Origin: a virus
Strand: one strand, 5' to 3'
IMG/VR virus record: IMGVR_UViG_3300045988_105372
Span: 51,462-115,461 of that record
Length of the DNA stretch: 64,000 bases
Shown here: piece by piece, positions 5,641 through 61,937 of the stretch
Layout: every line of letters starts with the position of its first letter
Position numbering within the stretch: the stretch's first letter is position 1
Notes under the pieces: model-generated
Databases searched by the model: none
What the model saw: only the letters and a program-made list of their open reading frames with translations
What the model was told of the DNA's origin: nothing
Made by a program: the position numbers and the translations under genes

Positions 5641-5677
5641 ATTAAAAAAGGCAGATACTCTCGCGAGCACCTGCCTT
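5641..5677 (-). terminator. rho-independent terminator (stem AAGGCAG/CTGCCTT, then U-run on minus strand)
   Basis: hairpin 5648-5677 with A-run 5642-5648 on plus (U-run in minus sense), upstream of 5700..6380 start and downstream of 6473..6832... placed between genes. Confidence 0.5.
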
Positions 5678-5699
5678 ACTTTAAAAATTATGAATAAAA

Positions 5700-34150: not shown

Positions 34151-34182
34151 AAAAACAAATAATAAAAACAGTTCTATGAACT

Positions 34183-34300
34183 AGTGGAGCATTGGAGAGT
34201 CGAACTCCAGTCTTGCATATTTGCATCAAAACGTTCTTACAGCATAGGTTTTAAAGACTATCCTTGTCTGTTAGGGTTGACAAGATTAGCATTGCCAACT
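34183..34300 (-). ncRNA. tRNA-like element: perfect T-arm TGGAG-TTCGACT-CTCCA and 3' acceptor-like ATGCTCCA but no canonical D/anticodon arms
   Basis: manual inspection; lies in 650-nt non-coding region. Confidence 0.25.
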
Positions 34301-34646
34301 TCCACCACTCTGTTCCTAAAGTATACAGAGAACTAATAAAGAAATAAAAGAATAATGCACCTTTCCGTTCCCAAGCAAGTGCTGCTCGGTTTCTTAGGCT
34401 GCAATAGCGTAAGAAACAGGAGTCATATTGATAACTCTAGCGATTATTGTTTTGTTGTCTCTCCAACTGTCTTGCTGTGTTTCTTATCTCCTATACAATC
34501 AAAACCACGAATGCCCCAATTTAAAAGAGTCCTAAGTTAGAACTCTTTTATAAATTAGTGTCTACCACGTAAATAATTGTAATTATTATACCAATCATCT
34601 GGATCTATTCTATCTTCATTATCCATAATTTAAAACTTAATTAATG

Positions 34647-39569: not shown

Positions 39570-39712
39570 ATGAGAGTATTAAACATTTATTTGATTTGGA
39601 CACTCTTCTGTTTCATCAGGAACAGAAATTTCGTCCCACATATCACACTTACCTTCATCATTGTAGATACACGGTCTGTGACAGATTCCTCTAATATCTT
39701 CTCTTAGCATAT
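39570..39712 (-). CDS. small Cys-rich protein (~47 aa, MLREDIRGICHRPCIYNDEGKCDMWDE...)
   Basis: manual translation; below track cutoff; coordinates approximate. Confidence 0.3.
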
Positions 39713-45420: not shown

Positions 45421-45441
45421 ATGTTAATGTGTTATTTAATT

Positions 45442-45483
45442 AAACAAAAAAAGAGCCTAACTAGATTAACTAATTAGACTCTT
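45442..45483 (-). terminator. rho-independent terminator closing the tRNA array (AAGAGCCTAA...TTAGACTCTT + U7)
   Basis: 10-bp stem (1 mismatch), A-run 45442-45451 on plus. Confidence 0.45.
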
Positions 45484-45513
45484 TAAAATAGAATAATATA
45501 ATAAAAGAAATAG

Positions 45514-45589
45514 TGCTCAGAGTGGGGCTTGAACCCACATGTGACCATTACCGTTTCTACTGTGTATAAGACAGAGCGGATATCCGAGC
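45514..45589 (-). tRNA. non-canonical tRNA-like gene (76 nt): good acceptor GCTCGGA/TCTGAGC and T-arm GTGGG-TTCAAGC-CCCAC, but no normal D-arm; internal hairpin CTGT-CTTATAC-ACAG (possible UAU anticodon)
   Basis: manual folding. Confidence 0.3.
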
Positions 45590-45598
45590 ATTTAAAAG

Positions 45599-45668
45599 AT
45601 GTGTCTGAGGGTCGTTAATCCTCTCCTTTCTCAGTCAAGAGAACGTTGCAACTTGCCACTAAGACACA
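45599..45668 (-). tRNA. non-canonical tRNA-like element adjacent to previous (acceptor TGTGTCT/AGACACA, 6-nt anticodon-like loop, atypical T-loop)
   Basis: manual folding; weak. Confidence 0.2.
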
Positions 45669-45797
45669 CTGTTTTTGAGTTTTTGTAAGTCCTCCGACTT
45701 ATTAAAGTTTTCGCACAATTTTGATAAGAGCTCTACTTTCACAAGCAAAACTCTTTTATTTTTAACAACTTATAAATTAAAATAATGATAGAAAAAG

Positions 45798-45869
45798 GAA
45801 ATGCGGACAGATTTGAACTGCCAATCTTCTACTCTACGATAGACGCTCTAGCTATTGAGCTACGCATTT
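45798..45869 (-). tRNA. tRNA-like gene with 4-bp anticodon stem and 8-nt loop UCGUAGAG (canonical acceptor AAATGCG/CGCATTT, D-arm GCTC/GAGC, T-arm GGCAG-TTCAAAT-CTGTC)
   Basis: manual folding. Confidence 0.4.
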
Positions 45870-45896
45870 CTATATATACTAGTATTGCTATATAGC

Positions 45897-45937
45897 CTTA
45901 TTTAAAAACTCATACTACTTTCGCAAGCAGTATGAGT
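45897..45937 (-). terminator. hairpin (9-bp stem ACTCATACT/AGTATGAGT, loop ACTTTCGCAAGC) followed by U-run in minus sense
   Basis: perfect 9-bp inverted repeat; loop shares TACTTTCRCAAGCA with hairpin at 45740-45770. Confidence 0.4.
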
Positions 45938-46013
45938 TAATGTGTAAGTCATTTTATTGACTTATCAACTCAACTACAAGAAATTCATCAATTTTCACAA
46001 ATTAATAATTAAT

Positions 46014-46093
46014 ATGTCGCTTAGACGGGATTCGAACCCGTAAGACCATTCCTGGTCAAGGGATTTTCCTACTACACTTGCTTTTATACAAGC
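46014..46093 (-). tRNA. tRNA-like gene with canonical T-arm ACGGG-TTCGAAT-CCCGT but aberrant D/anticodon region (loop TTGACCA)
   Basis: manual folding. Confidence 0.3.
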
Positions 46094-46096
46094 TAA

Positions 46097-46201
46097 CTTA
46101 AATAAAGGGATTCGAACCCTTAATCCTCAAGAGATATTTAATGACGACTTTAGAGGCGCTTCCGTCAATCTGCTGCCGTATACCAATTCCGCCATATTTA
46201 A
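46097..46201 (-). tRNA. 105-nt tRNA-like gene (acceptor TTAAATA/TATTTAA, T-arm AAGGG-TTCGAAT-CCCTT) with ~30 extra nt in the body (contains CUCUAAAG)
   Basis: manual folding. Confidence 0.3.
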
Positions 46202-46694
46202 GTTATTGTAGTCTGGACTATTTTATTACCTTATCAATTAACTTCGAAGTAAGGAATTAGGTTTTACCTCTCTCAATGAGCGTCTCCTTTTTTACATAAT
46301 GCATTATTATTATAACCTTATTACTAAGGATGAAGTCTAAACCATTCCTTTTAATTAACTTAGGTATCTCCTCTATAGTCTCTACACATTTATGCTGTAA
46401 CACTCCAATTTACATTTAAGATAGATTAGCGTTCTATCACAATTTAGCTCGTCACCACCAAAACCTATGTTACCATAAGTGAGGCTTCTGTCGCAAGTTA
46501 ATTAGATTTCTGAATACTGCTTCTATAATCATTACTCTGCTTCTTACACAGATGCTAACCTTTTTACAATTAGTAATTAACTTGTTTAATTAGGGAGATT
46601 CTACTTCTATTATTTCTAATAGAGCACTCAAATTCACCATTACTGGTGTTCCAAAAGTCCCTCGTGTATCCCAGTTTCACCACTAAGCGATAAA

Positions 46695-46726
46695 GCAACT
46701 AATTATCTGCTAGTTGCCAACAATAT
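46695..46726 (-). repeat. 32-nt repeat GCAACTAATTATCTGCTAGTTGCCAACAATAT (hairpin GCAACTA/TAGTTGC); second copy at 49157-49188
   Basis: identical by eye in both copies; precedes tRNA-Arg at 49 kb and a degenerate tRNA-Gln-like remnant here. Confidence 0.7.
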
Positions 46727-46757
46727 TTATTTTATAAATCCTATAACTATTATGGTA

Positions 46758-47117
46758 TTACAGTTGTTTTAACATATTTGTAGCTACATATAATGAAATA
46801 TCCACAGTTGTATGAATATCATCATTTAATTTTAAGATATATGTATTATTTTCATCATTCTTTCTAGTTATCTCAGATATGTATTTATGATTTATTAAAA
46901 ATCCTTGTGTTGCAAGAATAAAATTAATACATAAAACACGTGAAATATTTTTTAATGAACAACACACAATAATACTATTGCCATGAACATCTATTATAGT
47001 ACTATATTTACCAGATGTTTTTATACATACAATGTCATTTATGTTTATTTGTCTGTACTCTCGTCCCTTAAACACTAAAAATGTATCAGAGTCAATCTGT
47101 ATTGTTTTTATTTCCAT
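46758..47117 (-). CDS. hypothetical protein (119 aa)
   Basis: ORF track. Confidence 0.45.
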   Translation of the reverse strand: MEIKTIQIDSDTFLVFKGREYRQININDIVCIKTSGKYSTIIDVHGNSIIVCCSLKNISRVLCINFILATQGFLINHKYISEITRKNDENNTYILKLNDDIHTTVDISLYVATNMLKQL

Positions 47118-47512: not shown

Positions 47513-47703
47513 AATTTATCTATAATTAATGTGTTAATAATCTATTTAAATAATAGGCGATTTTCACTGGTTATATTTAAACTATTCCATTGTCCTCAGC
47601 TATCTAACGTTCTTTCTCTTTTTAACCCAAATGATTAATTTTAAGGTAATTACGCTATTTAATAGAGTCGCTGAGAGTTGTTTAGTACCTATTTATTAAT
47701 TAG

Positions 47704-47776
47704 TAGAGGATGACAGAGTTGAACTGCCTATTAGGGAGTCAAAGTCCCTCGTGTGAAACCGTTACACTAATCCTCC
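47704..47776 (-). tRNA. tRNA-Gln(UUG)
   Basis: acceptor GGAGGAT/ATCCTCT, anticodon arm AGGGA-CTTTGAC-TCCCT, T-arm GGCAG-TTCAACT-CTGTC. Confidence 0.65.
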
Positions 47777-47826
47777 GAATAAAATACTATTCTCACGAAC
47801 CATATTTTATATTACAAGTATGAATA

Positions 47827-47917
47827 AAGCGGAGAAAGAAGGATTCGAACCTTCGAGCCATGTAATATGACTAACACCTTAGCAGGGTGCCACTTTCGAC
47901 CACTCAGTCATTTCTCC
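47827..47917 (-). tRNA. tRNA-Ser(GCU), type II with long variable arm
   Basis: acceptor GGAGAAA/TTTCTCC, anticodon arm GCACC-CTGCTAA-GGTGT, variable arm ~18 nt, T-arm GAAGG-TTCGAAT-CCTTC. Confidence 0.7.
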
Positions 47918-47922
47918 AATAA

Positions 47923-47950
47923 AGCTTCCTATCTTCACAGACAAGAAGCC
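47923..47950 (-). promoter_or_regulatory. hairpin with conserved loop CTATCTTCACAGAC (family 1) immediately 5' of tRNA-Ser
   Basis: stem GCTTC/GAAGC; loop identical to 48115-48128. Confidence 0.5.
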
Positions 47951-48029
47951 TAACAACTCTTTAACGTTATAAAGTCCGCTGACTTTATATTTTAAACATT
48001 AATCGTATTAGTTTTTTAAATATGGAAGA

Positions 48030-48103
48030 GTAGCACTAGCGATGCTCGAAATCGCCTTTGGATCTTGAAAGAATCCCGTCCTAACCAGCTAGACGATAGT
48101 GCC
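48030..48103 (-). tRNA. tRNA-Glu(UUC)
   Basis: anticodon arm GGATT-CTTTCAA-GATCC, T-arm GCGAT-TTCGAGC-ATCGC, acceptor GGCACTA/TAGTGCT. Confidence 0.65.
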
Positions 48104-48108
48104 AAGTA

Positions 48109-48136
48109 GATTCTCTATCTTCACAGACTGAGAATC
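48109..48136 (-). promoter_or_regulatory. hairpin with conserved loop CTATCTTCACAGAC (family 1) immediately 5' of tRNA-Glu; different stem (GATTCTC/GAGAATC)
   Basis: loop identical to 47929-47942; stems not homologous but complementary. Confidence 0.5.
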
Positions 48137-48178
48137 TCGTGTATTACAAATGAATACTTTTAATAAATTAAAAATTAA

Positions 48179-48252
48179 TGGTGCTCCCTGACAGTACTGA
48201 CCTGTCTTCCCGAAATTAAAAGTTTCGTGCTTCACCTTAAAGCTTAGAGAGC
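48179..48252 (-). tRNA. tRNA-Lys(UUU), CCA encoded, atypical T-loop GUCAGUA
   Basis: acceptor GCTCTCT/AGGGAGC-A-CCA, D-arm GCTT/AAGC, anticodon arm CGAAA-CTTTTAA-TTTCG. Confidence 0.55.
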
Positions 48253-48296
48253 TAATTTATAATCTTATTTTGCATAGAATTTTATTCTTGTATATA

Positions 48297-48371
48297 GTGG
48301 AGATACGTGGAATCGAACCACAATCTCGGGATTTTCAGTCCCGCGCTCTGACCTTCTGAGCTATATCTCCA
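48297..48371 (-). tRNA. tRNA-Phe(GAA)
   Basis: acceptor GGAGATA/TATCTCC, D-arm GCTC/GAGC, anticodon arm CGGGA-CTGAAAA-TCCCG, T-arm TGTGG-TTCGATT-CCACG. Confidence 0.75.
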
Positions 48372-48478
48372 TAGCCCACATTTCTATAAAGGAGAATAGT
48401 GGTAACACCTACCTATACTAATAAATTTATTAGTCAGGATTTATCCAAACACACTAACAATATATCAAATTAAATTTG

Positions 48479-48561
48479 TACGGTAGAAAGGATTCGAACC
48501 AATGACCTTCTCGAAATGACCTATTATAAAAGAGATGCTCTAACCACTGAGCTACTACCGT
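48479..48561 (-). tRNA. tRNA-like gene (83 nt) with canonical acceptor/D-arm but anticodon stem TCTC/GAGA enclosing 19 nt (contains direct repeat AGGTCATT x2)
   Basis: manual folding; T-arm region ATTGGTTCGAATCCTTT identical to 48992..49072. Confidence 0.4.
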
Positions 48562-48616
48562 AAGTACTAGTTTATATCGGAAAACTAGTAAAACGTTAAC
48601 ACATTATTATGGAAAC

Positions 48617-48967
48617 TTAAAAGCCAAATGAAAACATGGTATTTGCGGAAGTACTAAGAGTTACATAAGGAATTTTATTTCTTACTGTAATAAAGACAAT
48701 AAAGCGTCTTCCTGTATTAACCTCTCCACAATTATGGATTTCTACTCCATCTTTCATTTCAGAAGAGTATATTTTTAATACCATTTTACCAAACTTACTA
48801 TTATTAAAAGTAATAGTTTTTCTAGCTTCATTATATACTACTGAAGTTTTAATGTAAAATGGGTCACTCCATTCACCATCTTGATAAACAGTGATAGAAC
48901 CATAATTAAACGCATGAGCTATTGTAGTTAATACAATAAAACTCATTAATAAAATAATCTTTTTCAT
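48617..48967 (-). CDS. secreted protein with signal peptide (start trimmed to MKKIILLMSFIVLTTIAHA)
   Basis: ORF track 48617..49015; upstream 16 codons would overlap tRNA-like gene. Confidence 0.45.
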   Translation of the reverse strand: MKKIILLMSFIVLTTIAHAFNYGSITVYQDGEWSDPFYIKTSVVYNEARKTITFNNSKFGKMVLKIYSSEMKDGVEIHNCGEVNTGRRFIVFITVRNKIPYVTLSTSANTMFSFGF

Positions 48968-48991
48968 ATTACTCAATCTTTTTAATGTTAG

Positions 48992-49072
48992 TACGGAGTA
49001 AAGGATTCGAACCAATATAACCTCTCTATGAATTGTGGAAATGAGGTGCTCTAGCCATTAAGCTAACTCCGT
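48992..49072 (-). tRNA. tRNA-like gene (81 nt) with anticodon stem ACCTC/GAGGT enclosing 20 nt; paralog of 48479..48561
   Basis: manual folding. Confidence 0.4.
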
Positions 49073-49077
49073 ATATG

Positions 49078-49152
49078 TGGTCCTAATGCGGCTCGAACGC
49101 ATAACATCGAATTTAGAAGATTCGTACTCTAATCCAGTTGAGTTATAGGACC
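49078..49152 (-). tRNA. tRNA-Arg(UCU)
   Basis: acceptor GGTCCTA/TAGGACC, D-arm ACTC/GAGT, anticodon arm CGAAT-CTTCTAA-ATTCG, T-arm ATGCG-TTCGAGC-CGCAT. Confidence 0.75.
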
Positions 49153-49156
49153 AAGT

Positions 49157-49188
49157 GCAACTAATTATCTGCTAGTTGCCAACAATAT
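49157..49188 (-). repeat. second copy of 32-nt hairpin repeat GCAACTAATTATCTGCTAGTTGCCAACAATAT, 4 nt upstream of tRNA-Arg 5' end
   Basis: identical to 46695-46726. Confidence 0.7.
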
Positions 49189-49205
49189 ATATGAACTTTA
49201 CAGAA

Positions 49206-49469
49206 TTACTCTATTATTTCAGTTTCAGATATACACCATTTACCATTAATTTTAACGGCTTCTACCTGTTTATTATTTACTGTCTCAAGAGATACTTTAT
49301 TTTCTAAAGTTCTATTGAACGAAATAATGTATTTGTTAGCCTCTTCTTTAGAATTGACTACACGAGACTGAATGCTATTGTTAATAACATTATATATCTT
49401 TCTTAAAACTTTCATAATTATAATTTTTATAAAGTTAATAGTATATAGAGCATTGTTTCTCAACAACAC
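49206..49469 (-). CDS. hypothetical protein (87 aa)
   Basis: ORF track. Confidence 0.4.
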   Translation of the reverse strand: MLLRNNALYTINFIKIIIMKVLRKIYNVINNSIQSRVVNSKEEANKYIISFNRTLENKVSLETVNNKQVEAVKINGKWCISETEIIE

Positions 49470-49584
49470 TCTACTATAGTTTCAAATATCCATTGTAAAA
49501 GTAAAAATTTGTTAATTTCAAATTTTATAGTTTAAATCATCATATTTTGCAAATTTTAAACTTTAATACAATACAAAGACAATT

Positions 49585-50100
49585 TTATAGTATGTCTGCA
49601 ATATCCACATCATTATCTCCTGGATCTGGATAATCTTCAATATCACATGTTGTATCATCCTCATTATATTTTGAATGATAAGCAATGTGCTCTAACTTAT
49701 TAATAATATTGTTTACTTTAGCTAATCTATTATAAGTAGAATCCAAAGCCTGATTTAAAGCGTTTGCAATAACTTTACACATAGTATGCATAGCTTTATC
49801 TCTCACAATTCGATTAGCTACTACCTGGTCGTCCTCATCATTTTTACTTAAAGTAATTTTAGAAACGACTGTTACAGTAGAATTATCAACAGTAAGTCCC
49901 CAAGAAGCAAGGTTTTTAATGAAAATCTTTCTTTCTTTAGAAGTCGCAATTTTAAGGAATACAGAAGTATCAGCACTTGAAACTTTTATATTAGCTCCTT
50001 CTAAGTAATCCATTATGTACTCTAAATCACAAGACATAGTACAAAACGTACTGTTACCAACTCTCTCAATGCTGTACTTTACTTTCTTAATTGTCTGCAT
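49585..50100 (-). CDS. hypothetical protein (171 aa), acidic C-terminus
   Basis: ORF track. Confidence 0.45.
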   Translation of the reverse strand: MQTIKKVKYSIERVGNSTFCTMSCDLEYIMDYLEGANIKVSSADTSVFLKIATSKERKIFIKNLASWGLTVDNSTVTVVSKITLSKNDEDDQVVANRIVRDKAMHTMCKVIANALNQALDSTYNRLAKVNNIINKLEHIAYHSKYNEDDTTCDIEDYPDPGDNDVDIADIL

Positions 50101-50482
50101 TTTCTTTCGTTTTAGATTGTTTGAACAATTTAATGATGCCTTTTAAAGCATATTCTGGAACATTGCCACAAAGACATCCACCATTTACATACAGTTTAAT
50201 ATTACCATAAGTAAATTTAGTAATCTCAAGATTCCCTTCAGCGCCATTAGATTCATTCTCTAACCATACTGGAAAATCTTTCCATTCATCTACAGTTAAT
50301 GATTCATCAATAACTGAATGTTCTTCAATAGTCGGTTTCAGAGCTTTAAAATGCTTTAAGACTAAAGTCTTATGCACTGAATCAGCAAACTCTAGTTTCT
50401 TTGGTTTCTTGCTAAGAAAGAAGTAATCTTCACCAATCTTAGCCACAACATTTTTCTGTTTAACATTAAATAATAATTCCAT
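50087..50482 (-). CDS. hypothetical protein (131 aa)
   Basis: ORF track. Confidence 0.45.
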   Translation of the reverse strand: MELLFNVKQKNVVAKIGEDYFFLSKKPKKLEFADSVHKTLVLKHFKALKPTIEEHSVIDESLTVDEWKDFPVWLENESNGAEGNLEITKFTYGNIKLYVNGGCLCGNVPEYALKGIIKLFKQSKTKENADN

Positions 50483-50493
50483 AATTTTTAAAA

Positions 50494-50892
50494 TTAATAG
50501 TTATATCTACTTAGTTCAAGATCAACTTCAGAAATTAATCTAGATTTATATGTAGCTAATGCTGTTTTATAAGTTTCAGAGTCAGCTTCATAATGACCTT
50601 CGATATATTCTAAAGTTCCCTCTTTGAACATTACAGTTTTAGATGATAAGTTATCTGATAGAAATACTATTCCATCAGATGTCAAAGATTTACTTCTAGT
50701 AAATCCTTTATTATACATATTAATATGTATATACAAACAATCGTAGAGACTTAAAGCATTGTTTATATTGCTTCTTATATCTCTTAGCTGATTAAGTTTT
50801 ACTTGTTTTATTACTTTATTATGATTGGCAATAGCCCAAATCACACATAGAATAAAAGCAAGTATAACAATTCCTAGCAAACCTTTATCCAT
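50494..50892 (-). CDS. membrane-anchored protein (132 aa)
   Basis: ORF track; N-terminal TM helix. Confidence 0.45.
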   Translation of the reverse strand: MDKGLLGIVILAFILCVIWAIANHNKVIKQVKLNQLRDIRSNINNALSLYDCLYIHINMYNKGFTRSKSLTSDGIVFLSDNLSSKTVMFKEGTLEYIEGHYEADSETYKTALATYKSRLISEVDLELSRYNY

Positions 50893-51244
50893 ATATTCTT
50901 GGTTCTGTATTAATGTTTTTAGAACTCATATATTGGTAAAGCCATTTAACATTATTTACAACAAAAGTGTTACCTTTTATATCTGTAAATAATATTTTCT
51001 TGTACTTATCCATAATCAGTCCCGATAATACTAACAAAGGATTTCTAATATATGCTGCAAATGTTCCCCCCTTTATACTTTCTCCAGAAATAATTCTTAA
51101 TGTATTATTAAGATATTGATATTTCTTATTGAAAGCATTAGCATAGTTAGCATGTGTAGTCTTAGAAATATTGTACTCTGCATCAATCTGTGCTGAGAGC
51201 ATTATTACTAATTCTCCCAGAGTATTGTGATTCATTGTCACCAT
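50885..51244 (-). CDS. hypothetical protein (119 aa)
   Basis: ORF track. Confidence 0.45.
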   Translation of the reverse strand: MVTMNHNTLGELVIMLSAQIDAEYNISKTTHANYANAFNKKYQYLNNTLRIISGESIKGGTFAAYIRNPLLVLSGLIMDKYKKILFTDIKGNTFVVNNVKWLYQYMSSKNINTEPRIYG

Positions 51245-51408
51245 TGATAAATTCCTCCCAAAGATAATTGTGCTTGTAATGTTTCTAAGTCACTCTTGAT
51301 TGGAAGTTCTTTACCATGAATAGCTTTGTACTCCTTACTTACTTGTGCAATAGTTTTCTTTTTAGAAAAGACTAATGCTGTAATCTTAATAATGTCTTTT
51401 GTCTCCAT
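51238..51408 (-). CDS. small protein (56 aa, METKDIIKITALVFSKKKTIAQVSKEYKAIHGKELPIKSDLETLQAQLSLGGIYQW); stop overlaps start of next gene (ATGGTGA)
   Basis: manual translation; translational-coupling overlap. Confidence 0.4.
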   Translation of the reverse strand: METKDIIKITALVFSKKKTIAQVSKEYKAIHGKELPIKSDLETLQAQLSLGGIYQW

Positions 51409-51504
51409 TTTTTTAAACTATTTAATTATTAATAATGTGCCATCACCTTTCTCATTAAGAGTCTGCTACTTTGGATATGTAGGATGTAGGTTTACACTAG
51501 AGCT

Positions 51505-51525
51505 CTATCTATCACAGACCGAACT
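51505..51525 (-). promoter_or_regulatory. family-1 motif CTATCTATCACAGACCGAACT within small inverted repeat (TAGAG...CTCTA)
   Basis: 19/21 identity with 51589-51609; core shared with 47929/48115 copies. Confidence 0.45.
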
Positions 51526-51540
51526 CTAATATTTGTCTTT

Positions 51541-51574
51541 GTAATCTATTGTGCTTATGGACATAATAGATTAC
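51541..51574. repeat. 10-bp perfect inverted repeat GTAATCTATT...AATAGATTAC between the two family-1 motif copies
   Basis: seen directly. Confidence 0.6.
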
Positions 51575-51588
51575 TAAAGTAACTAGCC

Positions 51589-51609
51589 CTATCTGTCACA
51601 GACCGAACT
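51589..51609 (-). promoter_or_regulatory. family-1 motif CTATCTGTCACAGACCGAACT
   Basis: see 51505-51525. Confidence 0.45.
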
Positions 51610-51763
51610 AGCGAAAATGATCTAAACTGTATATTGTTGATAACTATTTTATTTTAAAAATACATAAGTCTTGTCTTATGATTAACTAATTTTCTTTCCA
51701 AGATGCCAACTATTTATTATACTCTATAGTACTAGAGTACAGAGATTATCTTCATTCTTTTAC

Positions 51764-54747: not shown

Positions 54748-55236
54748 ATTGTTAATGTGTTAAATTTATATTCATAGATACCTAATAACGTACAACTGTT
54801 ACTAGGTATTTCGTCCAGCCTCATCAGTATGAATTTTATAGTCTCCTGGTTGACTAAACAATTTCTCTTACTCCTTGTTTAAGGGAAGCCTCTCTTTTAG
54901 CACCGAGGTTATCGCTTTAATAAATAATGTAGAGTCCTTCAACACTTACTATCCCCTCCACTAATTGTCTTTACGCTTTCTTACTTCTAAAGTCTTTTTA
55001 ATACTTTACCAGTAATACTTTCAATGTGTTACGACGTGCTAAATACTGCCTGTACAAACCTATAAAAGGATAAACATCCGTTCTACTATTTAGCTATATA
55101 CTAGGATGATTTTTCAACTTAATTTAAAACATATTAGATAGGAACAGGTTTTACACAATACCCTGTATTACTTTCCGACTGTAGTACGGCAACCTATAGC
55201 TAGATATATCCTAGCCAGATTTTTTAGATTAAACAC

Positions 55237-55767: not shown

Positions 55768-56070
55768 TTATCTACAAATATCAATATCCATATCAGCCCC
55801 TCGATTTGCTTCAAACGCGTCCCAATCAAAACCTTCTTTTGCAACTTTTAAACTATGCTCTACTTCAGTTGCATAAGATTTAAGTTGTTTATAGAATGTA
55901 ATTTTACCGGTGTGTGTTATAGACTGTCTGTATAGTTTATAGCTACGTTCAGGATGTTTTGTAGCCTCTCTTCTTCCCCATTTAGTTAGTTGATGAGGAT
56001 TGAGTCCTATTTTACACATTGTCAAATCATCACCAACAATTGTGTATACTACAATATAAAAATACTGCAT
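55768..56070 (-). CDS. T5orf172/GIY-YIG-related domain protein (100 aa)
   Basis: FYIVVYTIVGDDLTMCKIGLNPHQLTKWGRR resembles T5orf172 domain. Confidence 0.45.
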   Translation of the reverse strand: MQYFYIVVYTIVGDDLTMCKIGLNPHQLTKWGRREATKHPERSYKLYRQSITHTGKITFYKQLKSYATEVEHSLKVAKEGFDWDAFEANRGADMDIDICR

Positions 56071-56313
56071 AACTTTATACGATTTACCTTATACTATCGC
56101 GAGGTTTTTAAATGAATATTAAGCACTTTAGTTTTAAGACCTATAAACCACGTTGAGGTATGCTTTGCGTTATAGGATTTCGTCTAAAGTAAACTTTAGA
56201 CAGGGATTTCAACCTATGGAATAAAAACCTTTTTGTTTGTTTTATTTTATTTGTGTTTTGTTATTTTTAGTAAAACATCTTACAAAGAATAAAAATATTA
56301 TTGTATAAAATTC

Positions 56314-56515
56314 TTATAAATTGTTTGATGTGATGATGATTTTTGGAGTGATATATAAGTTGGTTTTAGTGAGAGAGATTGGGAAATTGAGGAAAGGTTT
56401 GTTTGATGGATGGGAGTTCGTGTGCACACAAACTCATACCAATCCATACAAACAACTAACCTTCCTCACCCAATCCCAACTTATCCCCCACCAATTCCAA
56501 CTATCTCTCCAAACA
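56314..56515. repeat. long imperfect inverted repeat: C-free arm (56314-56418) and G-free arm (56425-56515) around perfect palindrome GTGTGCACAC (56420-56429)
   Basis: base composition and reverse-complement similarity checked by eye (GGAGAGATAG...ATTGGGTGAGGAAGGTTAGTTGTTTGTATGGATTGG vs GGAGTGATAT...ATTGGGAAATTGAGGAAAGGTTTGTTTGATGGATGGG). Confidence 0.6.
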
Positions 56516-56689
56516 GCATATTTGACCACGATAACTTTATCATTTTCAATGAGCAACATAAAAATTCCAACAATTTGTGTCGGAAGTTGAACATTGTAGA
56601 ATTCCAAAGTTTCGAGATCAACAAGCTTATTTTTTCCATAAACTCCCTTTATAGTTCTGAACATATACAAAAATACAAAGAAATTTATA

Positions 56690-56727
56690 AAAAAAATTTT
56701 AAAGGAGAGAGATTACTCTCTCCCCTT
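56690..56727 (-). terminator. rho-independent terminator (AGGAGAGAG...CTCTCTCCCCT + U-run) after 56732..57145
   Basis: 9-bp GC-rich stem, A-run on plus 56690-56703. Confidence 0.55.
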
Positions 56728-56731
56728 TTCT

Positions 56732-57145
56732 TTACTTAGTACCAATTACGTTATTAAAACGTTTTGCTCCACCATAGTTTTCAAGAGTTTCAATATCAGC
56801 TGTGAAACCTTTGAAACCCTTCTCGTTGATGATTTTAACGGCGTCATCAACATCAGCCGCTCCAGGTGCCAACATAGCCAGCACTCGGTTACAATTAATA
56901 GTACGAACGCCATCTAATCCCTCTATAGTGACGTTAGCCATGGTGGCAACTACTGCCTTTGAGGCAGCAATTCCTCTCATAACATCACCTGGCATTGGTT
57001 GTTCACTAGCTGACACTGAAGTGTCATCAGTGAATGTAAATTTGATACCTGTGGCTTTGCCGTTCAATGCAGCCTGAATGGCTGCAGCACCCATGCTTAC
57101 TTGGCGGAGTGTCAAATTGCCACCGCCCTTAACTGAAATTTTCAT
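56732..57145 (-). CDS. hypothetical protein (137 aa), ~43% GC vs ~30% locally (possibly highly expressed or acquired)
   Basis: ORF track; composition. Confidence 0.5.
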   Translation of the reverse strand: MKISVKGGGNLTLRQVSMGAAAIQAALNGKATGIKFTFTDDTSVSASEQPMPGDVMRGIAASKAVVATMANVTIEGLDGVRTINCNRVLAMLAPGAADVDDAVKIINEKGFKGFTADIETLENYGGAKRFNNVIGTK

Positions 57146-57549
57146 AATCTTTAACTTTTTAAAATGTTTGTTAATTTTTTGTTTGGTTTTTACTCCAAAT
57201 ATGTGGGGGGCTCTAAGGGGCAGTGAACACCCGTGTAAATCACTAAATTTAATTAAAAATTAACTACTTCAATAAAAGCCATTAATGTAACAGTTCCTAA
57301 AAAATAACGGGGGGGAATATATAAAGTAACCTTAAAAATTTTAAAATTTTAAAAATGTAAAATATTTTTCACGTATAAGATAAGAAGAGTATTTTCATAA
57401 CTCCTTGATTATCAGACACTTACAAATTTTTTATGCACTCACAGATTTATTTTATTCATTGGAGGATTCACTTCATTCATTCCTACATTTGTTCTATTCA
57501 TAATTTTTGTGACATAATTTTTGTGAATTTATTTTGAATCATATAAAAA

Positions 57550-58029
57550 ATGAATAAATTAATTTTAATTAAAACAAATGTTAATATGAAACAAATAGAA
57601 TCAATTAAAGTTGGAGTGGGTGGAGAGATATTATCAGCTGAAGTTAAAACTATTAAAACTGTTAGTGCTGAACAATTCTGCCAGATATATTTAAGAGATA
57701 ATGAAGAATTTTATAAGTTATCTAAAGCAGAGTCTAATGTATTAGCTGTTTTATGGTATACTTCTAATTATTATGAAGATAAAGATAGGGCACTTCCAGG
57801 AAATAAGATTTCTTTAGATGAAGAACTTAGAGATACTATTAAAATTAAAACTAACTTAGCTGCTGGAACTATACGTAATACTATTACTTCTTTAGTAAAG
57901 AAAAAGATGTTATTAAAAGATTCTAGATATAAAGCTGTTTACTATTTAAATCCTGAATACTTTTTTAAAAGTAAAATATCTGATAGAACTCAAATTATAA
58001 AAAATATAATTGAGTATAAGTTTATTTAG
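57550..58029 (+). CDS. putative winged-helix DNA-binding / RepL-like replication-regulatory protein (159 aa)
   Basis: first gene of a short plus-strand block; weak resemblance to RepL-type proteins; tentative. Confidence 0.4.
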   Translation: MNKLILIKTNVNMKQIESIKVGVGGEILSAEVKTIKTVSAEQFCQIYLRDNEEFYKLSKAESNVLAVLWYTSNYYEDKDRALPGNKISLDEELRDTIKIKTNLAAGTIRNTITSLVKKKMLLKDSRYKAVYYLNPEYFFKSKISDRTQIIKNIIEYKFI

Positions 58030-58239
58030 TAATTGAATTTTTAAAATTTTAATTTTAATTTCTTAAAATATTAACTTTTACAAAAATTAACTTTTAATAT
58101 TCTCTACCTCGACTATATTACTCGTGTAATCAAAAAGAGATATTAAATGAATAAAGAACAACTAATACAAAGTATTAAAGACCTTCCTGATTAGTATAAT
58201 ATAAATTTATAGGTTATTGATAATGTAATTCATATAACC

Positions 58240-58449
58240 ATGACTAAAAAGGTAGATGAATTTGAAGAATATTGTAGTAAATTAGATGATGAAACATTTA
58301 ACAATGCTTGTCTAATATTTGGAATTATCTCAGATATATCTTTAGAAGATTTTTCTTCTAATTTAGATAATTCTAAATATAAAAAATATAAACAAGAATT
58401 TAAACACATAGTTGATTTTTTAAATGATAGAAACATTACAAAAAATTAA
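58240..58449 (+). CDS. hypothetical protein (69 aa)
   Basis: ORF track; plus-strand block. Confidence 0.35.
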   Translation: MTKKVDEFEEYCSKLDDETFNNACLIFGIISDISLEDFSSNLDNSKYKKYKQEFKHIVDFLNDRNITKN

Positions 58450-58636
58450 TAAGATAGTTCCTAATCTTACAGTATCTCAATTAATAGAACTAGTAAATAT
58501 TATTAATGGACCTAAATTAACTATAGACAATATGGTTTTAAAAGATATACCACATAATGGGTTTATTACAGTAGACACTAATAGTATTAAAACTACTTCT
58601 ACTGAAAATCCTTTTAGTGTTAGTAGTTATCTATAA
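58424..58636 (+). CDS. hypothetical protein (70 aa)
   Basis: ORF track. Confidence 0.35.
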   Translation: MIETLQKINKIVPNLTVSQLIELVNIINGPKLTIDNMVLKDIPHNGFITVDTNSIKTTSTENPFSVSSYL

Positions 58637-58940
58637 AGATAATATTCTCCTATGGTGTAATGGTTAGCACAGAAGACTCTTAATATAAGGAGCTTTATAT
58701 GGCGACATATATTGAAACTCTTCCCCTAATAAACCGAAACCTCGAATATAGTAATATATTCTTTGGCGAGGGCTTACTAAATTAACTTATAAAAGTTATA
58801 AATGGCGTAGAGACTATACAGGGAAGCATCTCTAGTAGATGAAGAAATAGTCCAGACTACAACATCCTAATAGGATGGCTTATGTAAAAGTAAGAGTAGT
58901 ATGAAATCTTTTAGTCAGGGTTCGAATCCTTGTGGGAGAA
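58636..58940 (+). tRNA. intron-containing amber suppressor tRNA, tRNA-Sup(CUA), Gln-like D-arm; exons 58636-58670 and 58904-58940
   Basis: exon1 TCTCCTA-TG-GTGT-AATGGTTA-GCAC-A-GAAGA-CUCU; exon2 AAA-TCTTT-TAGT-CAGGG-TTCGAAT-CCTTG-TGGGAGA-A; spliced anticodon loop CUCUAAA. Confidence 0.7.
58671..58903 (+). other. 233-nt group I intron in anticodon loop (between positions 35 and 36) of the suppressor tRNA
   Basis: 5' splice after U pairing to G of internal guide GGAG (P1 CUCU/GGAG), terminal G at 58903, core-like AGAGACTATAC ... AATAGTCCAGACTAC (P7 GACUA/UAGUC). Confidence 0.6.
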
Positions 58941-58941
58941 C

Positions 58942-59223
58942 ATGATAGCAGCAATTTATGAATTAAATGGTAAGATTTTAAAAACAACTAATCTTACTAA
59001 AAAATTAAAACGATTAAAATCAGAACCTAAGATTCTATTTCAATTAGAAAATGGAACAGAAGCTGATTTAGACCAATGGATTAAAGACAACCAAAATATA
59101 AATTCTAATTTAGAAGAAGATATAGAAATTAAAAAATATCATTATAGAAATCCAATTACAGGATATACAATGACTTCTATATATGATAATCTAGATGTTA
59201 ATGGTTATATAAAAATTGATTAA
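58942..59223 (+). CDS. hypothetical protein (start trimmed to MIAAIYELNGK so as not to overlap tRNA 3' exon)
   Basis: ORF track 58930..59223. Confidence 0.4.
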   Translation: MIAAIYELNGKILKTTNLTKKLKRLKSEPKILFQLENGTEADLDQWIKDNQNINSNLEEDIEIKKYHYRNPITGYTMTSIYDNLDVNGYIKID

Positions 59224-59412
59224 TGACTAACAAAGAATTAAAAGACTTAAAGTCTAAAATGAACAAAGTACTTAATGAAGTACAGTAGATTATTGATACT
59301 ATAGGAGATAATGATTTACAAGATAATCAATTAACTCTTGATTTTTGTGATAAGTTAAATGAATTATCTGTTACTTATTAATAAATATTTGGGGATGGAT
59401 ATTTATTAATTT

Positions 59413-59460
59413 AAAAAAATAGCCGAGGCTTCTCATTTGAGAAACTTCGGCTATTGTGGT
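59413..59460. terminator. bidirectional rho-independent terminator between convergent plus block and minus late block
   Basis: hairpin AGCCGAGG-CTTCTCA-TT-TGAGAAA-CTTCGGCT (59421-59453) flanked by A8 upstream and T-rich downstream. Confidence 0.55.
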
Positions 59461-59465
59461 TTTAA

Positions 59466-60602
59466 TTATTTTATATATAAAAAATTTCCTCCGCCCGTAT
59501 TTTGAGCATCATATTTTAGTAAGTCATCTCTAGTAAATATTTTATCAAAAGTTCTTAATCCTGAATGATAAGTACCATTATCTAAAGTATATAAATCTAC
59601 TGTTTTAACATTGTTTCTAGATTTCATAGCTTCTATCTCATCTCTAATATTATCTATACTTCCGGAAACTAAACGAACTTCTTTACCCGCCTATATAATT
59701 ATTCTTCCTCCAGCTATAGAACCATATTCATCAGTTCTATTATTATTAGCTAAAAAATTTAGTCTGTTATTTACAGATTTACCATTTACTATAGCATTTA
59801 ATATAGGACTTTTTCTAGAACCATTAGAATTACTTTCCATGAATAATACATTATCTTTAGAATCTGTTTTAAAACCAGTAACTGTATTTTTAAATGTTGG
59901 AGAAATCATACTTCCATTAGGAATATCTGAATATTTACCAAAAACAAATTTACCAATAGAATCTATACCTATATAATTCTAATTATTAGGAGATATGCTT
60001 TCTTTAGATTTGAAATTAGAAAAAGCAGTAATAGGAGCTGCTACACTATTTATAGGAGTATAATCACCTCTATTTCTATAACCAAAAGTATGCTTTGTTA
60101 AATTTATGGATTCTGGTATACGATATCTTCTAGAGTTTATTTTAGTAGTATCATTTATAGTATAACTATTTGGAGATATTTCTATTTCTAAATTTTCTCT
60201 CCTCTTATTTTTAGTTACTTTTTTATTAGAAATTTTAATTCTTTTACTAGTATGCTCAGGTTCTGAATCAAAAAATAACTATAGTTTTCTACTTAATCCA
60301 TTTCCTACTAAATTAATCAACTATTTACCACGTTCCCACATTGTTTCTTCTTTCTATTTAGAAGTAGATATTTTTTTAGCAGTGGGCATTTCTTTATATT
60401 TTGCAGGATGGTATACTAAGGTAGATGTTGGTTTAGTAGGATCTACTCCTTTAGCCTAAACCTATGGAAATATTATACTATTAGCTTTATCAGAATTAAT
60501 TTTAAAAGGGACTTTATTTGATTTTCTTCTACCATACAACTACCCATCTTCATACCAATAATCATATATTGAATCATTGTTAGTAATTACCTATACAGCC
60601 AT
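59466..60602 (-). CDS. late-region protein (378 aa) with 10 in-frame TAG codons; function unknown (virion-type gene block)
   Basis: manual translation: frame open for 379 codons with no TAA/TGA in ~72% AT DNA; ends ...NTGGGNFLYIK-TAA. Confidence 0.5.
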
Positions 60603-61723: not shown

Positions 61724-61937
61724 ATTTATACTTTATTTTTCCATATACTAGTTATACTATCAATTCCTAGTAATCCCATACAACAATATAAAACTGTATC
61801 TATCATATCAGGAGCTTGTATCTAACTAATAGAACAGTATATTAGAATAATTAAACTTACTATCCATCCTAATATTCCACACACTCTTTTACTACTTATT
61901 CCAGTATGTGCTGTTATTAATTTAATTAAAAACTATT

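What the first reader, a model, noticed from the sequence alone, without database searches (positions are those of the whole stretch)
47923..51609. Hairpin family 1: conserved loop CTATCTNTCACAGAC(CGAACT) with non-homologous compensating stems, placed right before tRNAs and a gene start
The identical 14-mer CTATCTTCACAGAC forms the loop of two hairpins whose stems are unrelated (GCTTC/GAAGC at 47923-47950; GATTCTC/GAGAATC at 48109-48136). These sit 8-14 nt 5' of tRNA-Ser and tRNA-Glu. Two longer copies (CTATCTATCACAGACCGAACT, 51505; CTATCTGTCACAGACCGAACT, 51589) flank a 10-bp perfect inverted repeat upstream of gene 51238..51408. A fifth copy of TCTGTCACAGACCG lies inside a small ORF at 39660-39678. 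Conserved loop plus freely varying complementary stem is the signature of a protein- or RNase-recognised RNA hairpin (boxB-like or processing site), or of a promoter embedded in an operator.
Basis: seen in the sequence. Interest (0 to 1): 0.55.

Follow-up and report, generated by a model that had tools for sequence, protein, structure and literature searches.

The report
GUGA-capped RNA hairpins punctuating phage transcripts
The repeated "loop" is the conserved tip of a widespread RNA hairpin family in phages of gut Bacteroidales, absent from Rfam, that sits just before tRNAs, self-cleaving ribozymes or U-tracts and most likely marks and protects RNA 3' ends.

Summary
All genes here are on the minus strand, where the motif reads GUCUGUGA(A/UA/CA)GAUAG.

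It is not a 14-nt loop. It is a small capped helix on a variable 6-10 bp stem: Y-G14 pair, N•A13 mismatch, G1•U12 wobble, a 3-bp pyrimidine/purine helix and a GUGA tetraloop.

The window holds seven solid members. The "fifth copy" near 39.67 kb is not a member.

In 2.26 Mb of IMG/VR loci I found 224 distinct hairpins, against 2 in reversed-sequence controls. Both helices covary. An uncompensated chimeric cap is almost never in a hairpin (2/90, against 95/114 and 68/107 for compensated caps). G•U outnumbers A•C 81:8, and 146 of 151 hairpins with a clear local coding strand lie on it. This is an RNA element, not a promoter.

What follows the stem:
- 45% have a U-rich tail (background 7.5%).
- 18% have a tRNA 5' end within 15 nt, mostly 2-7 nt.
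- Some have a hatchet ribozyme 0-11 nt downstream.

Stem-bearing copies in bacterial genomes are almost all Bacteroidales. No Rfam family or paper matches.

Best reading: a 3'-boundary hairpin (terminator or processing-adjacent) whose cap is a recognition site for an unknown factor.

The parts
47922..47951 (-). Hairpin member (cap GUCU[GUGA]AGAU-AG at 47929-47942). Its stem ends 4 nt 5' of tRNA-Ser (47829-47917).
   Evidence: Sequence. CM 44.8 bits, E = 2e-9; 42.4 bits. MFE -17 kcal/mol, z = -5.05.
48108..48137 (-). Hairpin member (cap at 48115-48128). Its stem ends 4 nt 5' of tRNA-Glu (48030-48103).
   Evidence: CM E = 4e-8. MFE -13.6 kcal/mol, z = -2.44. Orthologues carry loop variants GUAA, GUGAU and GCGAU.
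47779..47810 (-). Hairpin member with a compensated cap, GUUC[GUGA]GAAU-AG (47787-47800). It lies 2 nt 5' of tRNA-Gln (47703-47776).
   Evidence: CM E = 0.09 (R1) and 2.8e-6 (R2). Fold. The module is absent in relatives L001/L008/L009 and present in L075.
45907..45938 (-). Hairpin member with a compensated cap, GCUU[GCGA]AAGU-AG (45915-45928). It is followed by UUUUUA, with a tRNA-like gene about 35 nt downstream.
   Evidence: CM E = 0.0065 and 2.3e-7. MFE -18.8 kcal/mol, z = -6.79. Sequence.
45726..45755 (-). Hairpin member with a compensated cap, GCUU[GUGA]AAGU-AG (45733-45746), downstream of the tRNA-like gene 45797-45869.
   Evidence: CM E = 0.08 and 5.4e-7. MFE -15.4 kcal/mol, z = -5.51. 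Orthologues show U•G changing to U-A in the stem.
51582..51612 (-). Upstream copy of the tandem pair. The cap GUCU[GUGAC]AGAU-AG (51589-51603) has a 5-nt loop. The basal stem CUAGUUC/GGGCUAG needs two U•G pairs.
   Evidence: MFE -14 kcal/mol, z = -2.94; E = 3e-4.
51494..51532 (-). Downstream copy of the tandem pair (cap 51505-51519, loop GUGAU), about 85 nt upstream of the ATG of gene 51238..51408.
   Evidence: (MFE -18.1 kcal/mol, z = -6.0). Across relatives the two bases after UAG are GG, AG, GA or AA opposite UU, and all of these pair in RNA.
51542..51575 (.). 10-bp perfect inverted repeat (GTAATCTATT...AATAGATTAC) between the tandem copies. It belongs to the 84-bp unit that is deleted in some relatives.
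   Evidence: Sequence. L004 and L012 carry a single hybrid hairpin, with the 5' flank of one copy and the 3' flank of the other.
47703..48103 (-). The tRNA-Glu, tRNA-Ser and tRNA-Gln genes whose 5' ends abut three of the hairpins.
   Evidence: ARAGORN; Rfam tRNA.
39674..39688 (+). Not a family member.
   Evidence: No flanking stem, UUC in place of UAG, opposite orientation to the genes. No CM hit at E <= 10 or E <= 1.
5643..5680 (-). Weak or divergent relative: GGCAG-GU-GCUC[GCGA]GAGU-AU-CUGCC followed by UUUUUU. It looks like an ordinary intergenic terminator with a similar cap but no UAG.
   Evidence: R2 23.5 bits, E = 0.003. Sequence.
57252..57291 (-). Weak candidate: GCUU...AAGUAG with a 6-nt non-GNRA loop, followed by a U-run.
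   Evidence: R2 21.9 bits, E = 0.0076. Sequence.

Best explanation
**What it is (shown).** These are members of a family of sense-strand RNA hairpins. The architecture is 5'-[variable 6-10 bp stem]-Y-N-G-(YYY)-GUGA-(RRR)-U-A-G-[stem']-3'.
- Y pairs with the last G.
- N faces the A.
- The first G forms a wobble pair with the U.
- The three-base-pair mini-helix covaries.
- The loop is almost always GUGA.

**Where it sits (shown).** The hairpins lie in intergenic, ncRNA-rich stretches of Bacteroidales phage genomes.

**What it does (inferred).** They act in cis as transcript punctuation. An RNA 3' end is made just downstream, which leaves the hairpin as the 3'-terminal structure of the upstream RNA. 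The end can be made in three ways:
- intrinsic termination at a U-tract (about 45% of members);
- RNase P cutting at a tRNA 5' end 2-7 nt away;
- a hatchet ribozyme cutting at its own 5' end 0-11 nt away.

A terminal hairpin with almost no single-stranded tail should block 3' exonucleases and insulate neighbouring folds.

**The cap (inferred, more weakly).** The invariant G•U, A and G-Y features and the GUGA loop are not needed for stability. They are most simply a recognition surface for a trans-acting factor, phage or host, that is not yet identified.
For: **Structure.**
- 68-sequence alignment: 93% of cells paired against 35-48% when slid; covariation 0.748 against 0.186 shuffled.
- 119-sequence alignment: 11 of 13 pairs change on both sides; covariation 0.935 against 0.263; G1•U12 invariant; Y-G14 is UG in 69 and CG in 50.
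- The cap helix forms in 133 of 136 hits when pairing is not required, and in 47 of 50 non-consensus caps. The loop is GUGA in 44 of those 50.
- Database test: compensated caps sit in hairpins in 95/114 and 68/107 contexts, the uncompensated chimera in 2/90.

**RNA level and strand.**
- G•U 81 against A•C 8 in the basal stems.
- Coding strand 146 against opposite strand 5; 150 of 159 are intergenic.

**Specificity.**
- 224 hairpins against 2 in reversed-sequence controls.
- Among 120 exact 14-mer hits in bacterial genomes, about 100 have no stem. Of the ~15 with a convincing stem, 13 are Bacteroidales.

**3'-end placement.**
- 101 of 224 have at least 5 T in the 8 nt after the stem, against a background of 7.5%.
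- T is enriched at +6 to +9 after G14, and that is the only conserved flank.
- 40 have a tRNA start within 15 nt, 32 of them at 2-7 nt.
- Hatchet ribozymes start 0-11 nt after the stem in L090, L029 and L082.
- Copies in host genomes follow ordinary genes and carry U-tracts.
Against: - There are no transcript-end data, so termination, processing order and protection are all inferred.
- In this window only 1 of 7 members has a clear U-tract. The tandem pair abuts no known processing site.
- U-tract hairpins lying directly in front of tRNAs would block tRNA expression if they terminate efficiently.
- In the RAGATH-1 hammerhead, my reading of the window sequence places cleavage at the 3' end of the ribozyme, so adjacency to the cut fails there.
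- Hairpins are no closer to upstream stop codons than to downstream starts (61 against 66).
- The hairpin in front of tRNA-Gln is absent in close relatives, so it is dispensable.
- No candidate binding protein was found. Neighbouring genes are ORFans.
- The loci were ascertained through exact 14-mers, so the frequencies are biased.
Confidence: 0.5

Rival explanations
1. Regulated terminator or antiterminator site (boxB-like or PyrR-like). A phage protein binds the GUGA cap on nascent RNA. It either clamps weak AU-rich hairpins to enforce termination or loads onto RNA polymerase to suppress it, giving temporal control of tRNA and downstream gene expression.
For: - The GNRA-type loop, with tolerated 5-nt GNRA-N variants, resembles boxB loops (established knowledge). 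Loop variants are shown.
- 45% of members carry U-tracts.
- U-tract hairpins sit directly in front of tRNAs that must still be expressed.
- In temperate relatives the hairpins lie in a NinB/NinG-like region, which in lambda is the terminator-rich nin region (lambda from knowledge).
Against: - No conserved boxA-like linear element lies next to the hairpins.
- There are many copies per genome, up to 6 in 1.3 kb.
- About half have no U-tract.
- No N-like or other RNA-binding protein was identified.
- Copies after ordinary host genes argue against a strictly phage-encoded partner.
Confidence: 0.17
2. The hairpin is itself the product, or the scaffold of a product. Cleavage at the downstream tRNA or ribozyme, plus upstream processing, releases small RNAs that end in the capped hairpin. 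These could be an sRNA family sharing a chaperone-binding 3' handle, or abundant decoys that titrate a host RNA-binding protein.
For: - Arrays of 3-6 hairpins spaced about 80-190 nt apart lie in long noncoding islands.
- Hairpins are far from ORFs on both sides.
- They are adjacent to cleavage sites.
- The overall shape, a hairpin followed by a U-tail, matches bacterial sRNA 3' ends (established knowledge).
Against: - There is no conserved single-stranded seed or flank.
- There is no expression evidence.
- Many members are isolated and lie directly between two tRNAs.
Confidence: 0.12
3. DNA-level element: a single-stranded DNA hairpin or short homology block serving recombination or module shuffling (PeSL-, REP- or attC-like), or a small mobile insertion.
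For: - An 84-bp deletion lies exactly between the tandem copies in L004 and L012.
- The tRNA-Gln hairpin module is present or absent among close relatives.
- Similarity breakpoints against relatives repeatedly fall at hairpin edges.
- PeSLs in T4-type phages are a precedent (PMC4122927).
Against: - The 10:1 excess of G•U over A•C and the 58% U•G at the Y-G14 pair fit RNA rather than DNA.
- GUGA is an RNA-stabilising loop.
- Stems are unrelated between copies, so this is not copy-and-paste.
- Positioning within a few nucleotides of RNA processing sites has no DNA-level rationale.
- Recombination between repeats can be a by-product.
Confidence: 0.08
4. Promoter, for host or phage RNA polymerase, embedded between inverted repeats that act as an operator.
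For: - The element always lies upstream of, and co-oriented with, transcribed units.
- There is a superficial resemblance of ...GTGACAGATAG to SP6/T7-class promoters (from memory).
Against: - The conserved block covaries internally, and the uncompensated chimera is absent from hairpins.
- U-tracts follow it.
- No RNA polymerase gene was seen in the window: the largest ORF is 517 aa, and the ten large ORFs that were scanned hit replication, recombination and metabolic families.
- Sigma-70-like sites are not enriched.
- I saw no Bacteroidetes TAnnTTTG motif in or next to the cap (read by eye).
Confidence: 0.03

Closest known systems
Intrinsic (Rho-independent) terminators
   Same: A stable hairpin on the sense strand, followed in 45% of members by a U-rich tract. 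Copies in host genomes follow ordinary genes.
   Different: - The cap is sequence-conserved (G•U, unpaired A, G-Y, GUGA) and is not needed for stability.
- About half the members have no U-tract and abut tRNAs or ribozymes instead.
- They cluster in ncRNA islands rather than at gene ends.
Lambda/P22 nut boxB hairpins bound by N
   Same: A small hairpin whose GNRA-type apical loop is the conserved, recognised part. A 5-nt GNRA-N loop is tolerated. It occurs in phage early regions that contain terminators.
   Different: - No boxA partner is present.
- There are dozens of copies with unrelated stems, rather than two sites with a fixed stem.
- Conserved features extend 4-6 positions below the loop.
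- No N-like protein was found.
PeSL composite terminator/promoter cassettes of T4-type phages (PMC4122927, PMC2839356)
   Same: Repeated intergenic stem-loop modules in plastic regions of large phage genomes. Indels and module swaps occur at them.
   Different: PeSLs carry a conserved early promoter and act through DNA homology. Here there is no conserved flank or promoter, and conservation is in the RNA-structured tip, with covariation.
RNase III processing hairpins of T7 early RNA (R0.3, R1.1 and others; from knowledge)
   Same: Intercistronic hairpins in polycistronic phage RNA that end up as protective 3'-terminal stem-loops after cleavage.
   Different: In T7 the hairpin is itself the cleavage site and is longer, with an internal loop. 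Here cleavage appears to be supplied by the neighbouring tRNA (RNase P) or ribozyme, and the helices are only 12-16 bp.
RAGATH motifs, hatchet and hammerhead neighbourhoods in gut phages (Rfam RF02678, RF03152, RF03146 and others)
   Same: Same genomic neighbourhoods. Hairpins lie next to Hatchet and RAGATH-1 hammerhead, and close to RAGATH-9, -12, -15 and -7-assoc RNAs.
   Different: None of these models, nor any other Rfam 15 family, covers the hairpin.
Histone mRNA 3' stem-loop and SLBP (functional analogy only; from knowledge)
   Same: A short conserved stem-loop placed just 5' of an endonucleolytic cut, which becomes the protein-bound 3' end of the RNA.
   Different: A eukaryotic system with a different sequence. 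No binding protein is known here.

Membership tests
Intrinsic terminator | Stable RNA hairpin on the transcribed strand | tested here: met
   MFE -8.4 to -18.8 kcal/mol, z = -2.4 to -6.8. Sense strand 146 against 5.
Intrinsic terminator | U-tract immediately 3' of the stem | tested here: inconclusive
   Family: 101 of 224 (45%) against a 7.5% background. Window: clear only at 45907-45938. The simple terminator scan flags none of the seven.
Intrinsic terminator | RNA 3' ends generated in the U-tract | not testable with these tools
   Needs Term-seq or in vitro transcription.
Lambda-type nut site (boxA + boxB) | Hairpin with a GNRA or GNRA-like loop as the recognised element | tested here: met
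   Loop GUGA in 191 of 224; other GNRA loops and 5-nt GNRA-N variants also occur.
Lambda-type nut site (boxA + boxB) | Conserved linear boxA-like element at a fixed distance | tested here: not met
   No position outside -2 to +14 carries information, apart from the T-rich tail.
Lambda-type nut site (boxA + boxB) | Cognate N-like arginine-rich protein encoded nearby | tested here: inconclusive
   30 neighbouring window ORFs were scanned against Pfam: 27 had no hit, 2 had hits below the curated cut-off (2CompART, PDDEXK_14) and 1 was a LytTR DNA-binding domain protein. Small ORFans cannot be excluded.
Promoter (sigma-dependent or phage RNA polymerase) | Conserved double-stranded sequence with no requirement for internal complementarity | tested here: not met
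   The cap helix covaries (UCU/AGA, CUU/AAG, UUC/GAA, UAU/AUA and others). The chimera UCU/AAG sits in hairpins in only 2 of 90 contexts.
PeSL-type composite terminator/promoter | Conserved early promoter attached to the stem-loop | tested here: not met
   No conserved flank. Sigma-70-like sites number 38 against 42.6 expected.
PeSL-type composite terminator/promoter | Indels and module swaps bounded by the element | tested here: met
   An 84-bp deletion between the tandem copies, a hairpin indel before tRNA-Gln, and breakpoints at hairpin edges.
REP / attC-like single-stranded DNA hairpins | Conserved bases at the stem foot, similar stems among copies, function as DNA | tested here: not met
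   Conservation is apical and the stems are unrelated. G•U 81 against A•C 8.
Any Rfam 15 family | Match to a curated covariance model | tested here: not met
   Nothing at the hairpins at gathering threshold, at E <= 5 on 4.5 kb, or at E <= 10 on slices of 261 and 371 nt.
RNase III site (T7 R-site type) | About two helical turns of coaxial duplex with an internal loop at the cleavage site | tested here: inconclusive
   Total helix is 12-16 bp; the median basal stem is 7 bp, plus Y-G, a mismatch and 4 bp. Cleavage is not testable.
GUCCY-hairpin (Weinberg 2010, PMC2864571) | Hairpin with a conserved GUCCY in Bacteroidetes/Proteobacteria | not testable with these tools
   It is listed only in Table 1 of the paper, has no Rfam model and its alignment is not held. 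The consensus GUCUG or GUCCG does not fit GUCCY.

The most novel reading that the evidence does not exclude
The GUGA cap is a dedicated RNA "zip code". A conserved protein, from a Bacteroidales host or from the phage, reads the G•U / A / G-Y platform and the GUGA loop on hundreds of otherwise unrelated hairpins. It would define a post-transcriptional regulon that sets the fate of RNA 3' ends made by terminators, RNase P and self-cleaving ribozymes. In effect this would be a prokaryotic-viral counterpart of the histone stem-loop/SLBP or N/boxB systems, and it would give the puzzling phage ribozymes a concrete job: making ends next to the cap.
Probability: 0.3. Interest if true: 0.8.

Novelty: new variant of a known kind. 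Interest (0 to 1): 0.62.

Why it matters
- **Ribozyme function.** Gut phages of Bacteroidales carry dense islands of tRNAs, tmRNAs and self-cleaving ribozymes whose purpose is largely unknown. A single, easily searchable hairpin that sits within a few nucleotides of tRNA 5' ends, hatchet cleavage sites and U-tracts links these elements into one RNA-processing logic. It also offers a handle for finding the factor that reads it, through pull-down and mutagenesis.
- **Annotation.** The motif gives annotators a marker for transcript boundaries in genomes where promoters and terminators are poorly defined.
- **Evolution.** It may explain some module shuffling in tRNA arrays.
- **Fallback.** If the cap proves to be only a favoured terminator tip, the result is still a useful new RNA family with unusually clean covariation.

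Tried and rejected
- **Rfam.** Searched four ways. Nothing at the hairpins.
- **Literature.** The DNA and RNA 14-mers, RAGATH, hatchet, GNRA/terminator/Bacteroides and crAss terms were searched. No description was found. The theta-ribozyme paper does not mention hairpins. The Weinberg 2015 paper is not held, and the 2017 supplements are not held.
- **K-turn, loop E, group II intron domain 5, Cas12a repeat, SRP, PP7/MS2 operators, TRAP/HutP/CsrA sites.** Compared by eye with the consensus and rejected, because the defining nucleotides are not in register. These comparisons rest on memory.
- **GUGA tetraloop docking into a CU:AG receptor within the cap.** Rejected as a general rule, because the UUC/GAA, UAU/AUA and UUU/AAA caps lack it.
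- **Hammerhead stem III overlapping the cap in L073.** Considered and dropped, because the hairpin's own stem competes.
- **Bacteroidetes TAnnTTTG promoter motif upstream of the hairpins.** Not found by eye.
- **Sigma-70 scan.** Not enriched.
- **Search for a partner protein.** Annotating 30 neighbouring window ORFs and the most widespread neighbour clusters gave ORFans, LytTR, GerE, NinG, DUF4494 and a protein that resembles lambda NinB only by eye, with no Pfam hit. No RNA-binding candidate emerged.
Rejected as a member.

Full report
**Setting.** The window is AT-rich (about 30% GC) and every gene and RNA gene lies on the minus strand.
- It carries replication and recombination genes, NAMPT, a tmRNA, two tRNA clusters and a RAGATH-1 hammerhead.
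- Its closest record is an unannotated human-faecal phage scaffold, MT835539.1, at 93% identity.
- Related IMG/VR contigs are 94-181 kb long.

**Checking the observation.**
- The shared 8-mer occurs 5 times against 0.79 expected.
- The two short copies lie between unrelated complementary arms. Their stems end 4 nt before tRNA-Ser and tRNA-Glu.
- The two long copies also have flanking stems.
- All fold as single long hairpins, with z-scores of -2.4 to -6.8.
- The "fifth copy" at 39674-39688 has the opposite orientation, ends in GATTC, has no stem and is not found by either covariance model. I do not count it.

**What the "loop" really is.** Most hits sit between unrelated inverted repeats.
- Aligned without gaps, 68 distinct examples show that position -k always pairs with position 12+k.
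- The base at -2 is always C or U and pairs with the final G (UG 35, CG 33).
- G1 pairs with U12, positions 2-4 pair with 9-11, and GUGA is the loop.
- 93% of cells are paired, against 35-48% when the partner is slid. Covariation is 0.748 against 0.186 for shuffles.
- The element is therefore a capped helix, not a 14-nt loop.

**More members in the window.** A model built from this alignment found three further members whose cap helix is changed on both strands:
- GCUU[GCGA]AAGU-AG at 45907-45938;
- GCUU[GUGA]AAGU-AG at 45726-45755;
- GUUC[GUGA]GAAU-AG at 47779-47810, 2 nt before tRNA-Gln.

**Testing the cap helix.**
- I dropped the pairing requirement but kept Y, G1, G-N-R-A, UAG and a basal stem. 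That gave 136 distinct hits, of which 133 form all three cap pairs.
- Of the 50 caps that differ from the searched 14-mer, 47 are fully paired, and 44 of the 50 have GUGA.
- I then ran a designed test on the whole collection. The consensus cap sits in a hairpin in 95 of 114 contexts. The doubly compensated cap GCUUGUGAAAGUAG does so in 68 of 107. The uncompensated chimera GUCUGUGAAAGUAG does so in only 2 of 90.
- A 119-sequence alignment balanced over cap types gives 11 of 13 pairs with changes on both sides. G1•U12 is invariant, and covariation is 0.935 against 0.263.
- With the generalised pattern, 2.26 Mb of viral loci hold 224 distinct hairpins. Reversed sequences, which keep composition and palindromes, hold 2.

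**RNA or DNA, and which strand.**
- Basal stems contain 81 G•U cells and 8 A•C cells.
- More than half of the Y-G14 pairs are U•G.
- Of 159 distinct contexts, the hairpin lies on the local coding strand in 146 and on the opposite strand in 5.
- 150 of 159 are outside ORFs.
- In orthologues of the tandem copy, the two bases after UAG are GG, AG, GA or AA opposite UU. All of these pair only if G•U is allowed.
- Together with internal covariation of the conserved block, this rules out a double-stranded promoter or operator and makes a single-stranded DNA role unlikely.

**Context.**
- The only information outside the hairpin is T-richness 6-9 nt after the final G.
- Of the 224 hairpins, 101 (45%) have at least 5 T in the 8 nt after the stem, against a background of 7.5%.
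- 40 have an ARAGORN tRNA starting within 15 nt, 32 of them at 2-7 nt. Many in the "other" class are followed by tRNA-like sequences that ARAGORN does not call.
- Hatchet ribozymes start 0-11 nt after the stem in L090, L029 and L082. From my own knowledge, hatchet cleaves at its 5' edge.
- RAGATH-1 hammerheads and a twister-like element lie a few tens of nucleotides downstream in other loci.
- Hairpins cluster in long noncoding islands, up to 6 in 1.3 kb, and are not preferentially close to upstream stop codons.

**Host range.** The same 14-mer in 185,579 bacterial and archaeal genomes serves as a control. About 100 of 120 hits have no stem and come from all phyla. The ~15 with a convincing stem include 13 from Bacteroidales: Prevotella, Segatella copri, Bacteroides and Bacteroidaceae MAGs. 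Some lie in prophage-like regions. Others follow ordinary metabolic genes and carry a U-tract.

**Dynamics.**
- L004 and L012 carry one hybrid hairpin where the window has the tandem pair. This is an exact 84-bp deletion between the repeats.
- The hairpin before tRNA-Gln is a 45-55 bp indel: present in the window and in L075, absent in L001, L008 and L009.
- Similarity breakpoints against relatives repeatedly fall at hairpin edges.
- The element is therefore dispensable at individual sites, and it is sometimes a recombination boundary, as PeSLs are in T4-type phages (PMC4122927).

**Interpretation.**
- Shown: this is a strand-specific, covarying RNA hairpin family with an invariant G•U / A / G-Y platform and a GUGA loop. 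It is enriched in Bacteroidales phages and placed immediately upstream of U-tracts, tRNA 5' ends and hatchet ribozymes.
- Inferred: the common denominator is that an RNA 3' end forms just downstream. The hairpin then becomes a terminal, exonuclease-resistant structure and an insulator between adjacent folded RNAs.
- Inferred, more weakly: the cap is a recognition site. The U-A closing pair, the wobble and the mismatch do not maximise stability, yet they are the most conserved features.
Neighbouring genes are almost all ORFans. The commonest neighbours in temperate relatives are GerE/LuxR, NinG and DUF4494 proteins, together with a protein that looks NinB-like to me but has no Pfam match.
- The rivals remain open: a regulated terminator or antiterminator, a released small RNA or decoy, and a DNA-level recombination module. 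The promoter reading is effectively excluded.

**Comparison and novelty.** No Rfam 15 model covers the hairpin, even in very small search spaces. No held paper contains the sequence or describes such an element.
- It works like an intrinsic terminator or processing-adjacent stabiliser, and it has a boxB-like recognised tip.
- It fails the membership tests for nut sites (no boxA), PeSLs (no promoter), REP/attC elements (apical conservation, RNA signature) and promoters.
- I file it as a new variant of a known kind.

**Caveats.**
- Model E-values are rough.
- All functional steps lack transcript data.
- The motif may have been listed in supplementary material that I could not read.

Noticed in passing
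window 54772-54856 (-): RAGATH-1 hammerhead ribozyme (75 bits, E = 7e-11) in a 531-nt noncoding gap. By eye it is a type I-like hammerhead with cleavage near its 3' end. No capped hairpin lies directly upstream.
   Followed up: partly
window 48180-48253 (-): A tRNA-like gene called by neither ARAGORN nor Rfam. It has a good 7-bp acceptor stem, D and anticodon arms, anticodon loop CUUUUAA (UUU, Lys-like), an aberrant T-loop GUCAGUA and an encoded ACCA end. It lies 43 nt upstream of the tRNA-Glu hairpin.
   Followed up: partly
window 48992-49072, 48478-48561 and 45797-45869 (all -): Odd tRNAs. One is found only by Rfam (81 nt). One is an 84-nt 'tRNA-Tyr' with anticodon ATA. One is a 'tRNA-???' with a two-base anticodon. 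These could be introns, suppressor tRNAs or degenerate genes. The region 45421-46757 holds several more tRNA-like stretches.
   Followed up: no
window 47533-47693 and 46356-46461: Noncoding stretches 95.7% and 89% identical to Prevotella Lak megaphage genomes. One contains 38 nt identical to the crAss-like phage cr116_1. No RNA family or ORF explains them.
   Followed up: no
window 34182-34517 (-): A phage-encoded tmRNA with tag peptide ARVINMTPVSYAIAA. Permuted tmRNAs occur in several hairpin-bearing loci (L097, L109, L117).
   Followed up: no
window 39671-39688: The near-palindrome GGTCTGTGACAGATTC shares 15 nt with the tandem hairpin cap but on the opposite strand and without a stem. It is conserved in MT835539.1. 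It could be a remnant of an inverted copy or a coincidental palindromic site. It lies in a 337-nt stretch with no ORF of 45 aa or more in my non-overlapping minus-strand ORF set. One search does list a 43-aa minus-strand ORF (39579..39710) that contains it.
   Followed up: partly
window 56000-62000: GC skew collapses to about 0 at 56-60 kb. Several noncoding gaps of about 1 kb lie here (57146-58229, 58437-59465, 59910-60865). This is possibly an origin, a regulatory region or an ncRNA-rich region.
   Followed up: no
L014 about 4340-4440, L024 about 5840-5930, L035 about 7400-7470: A conserved structured-looking element (CCGGUGU...UAUCCGGRARCAAG...CGYGAG) lies just upstream of the capped hairpin in tRNA arrays of temperate Bacteroidales phages. 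Rfam was not run on these loci. It may be a ribozyme or an unknown ncRNA.
   Followed up: no
L083 (- strand) 1971-3241; L097 57-811; L073 4190-4484: Arrays of 4-6 capped hairpins spaced about 80-190 nt apart, with one 776-nt gap in L083, inside long noncoding regions. The inter-hairpin units match no Rfam family, except one RAGATH-1 hammerhead and one sub-threshold twister-P1.
   Followed up: partly
window 46758-47117 (-) and 49585-50100 (-): A small LytTR DNA-binding domain protein (E = 1e-7) next to the ncRNA island. An ORF with a weak 2-component ADP-ribosyltransferase hit (E = 0.004, below cut-off) lies in the small-gene cluster downstream of the tandem hairpins.
   Followed up: no
window 47966-47993 (-): Another intergenic hairpin, AUAAAGUC-AGCG-GACUUUAU, lies between tRNA-Glu and the tRNA-Ser hairpin. 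It lacks the cap, so not all hairpins in the array belong to the family.
   Followed up: no
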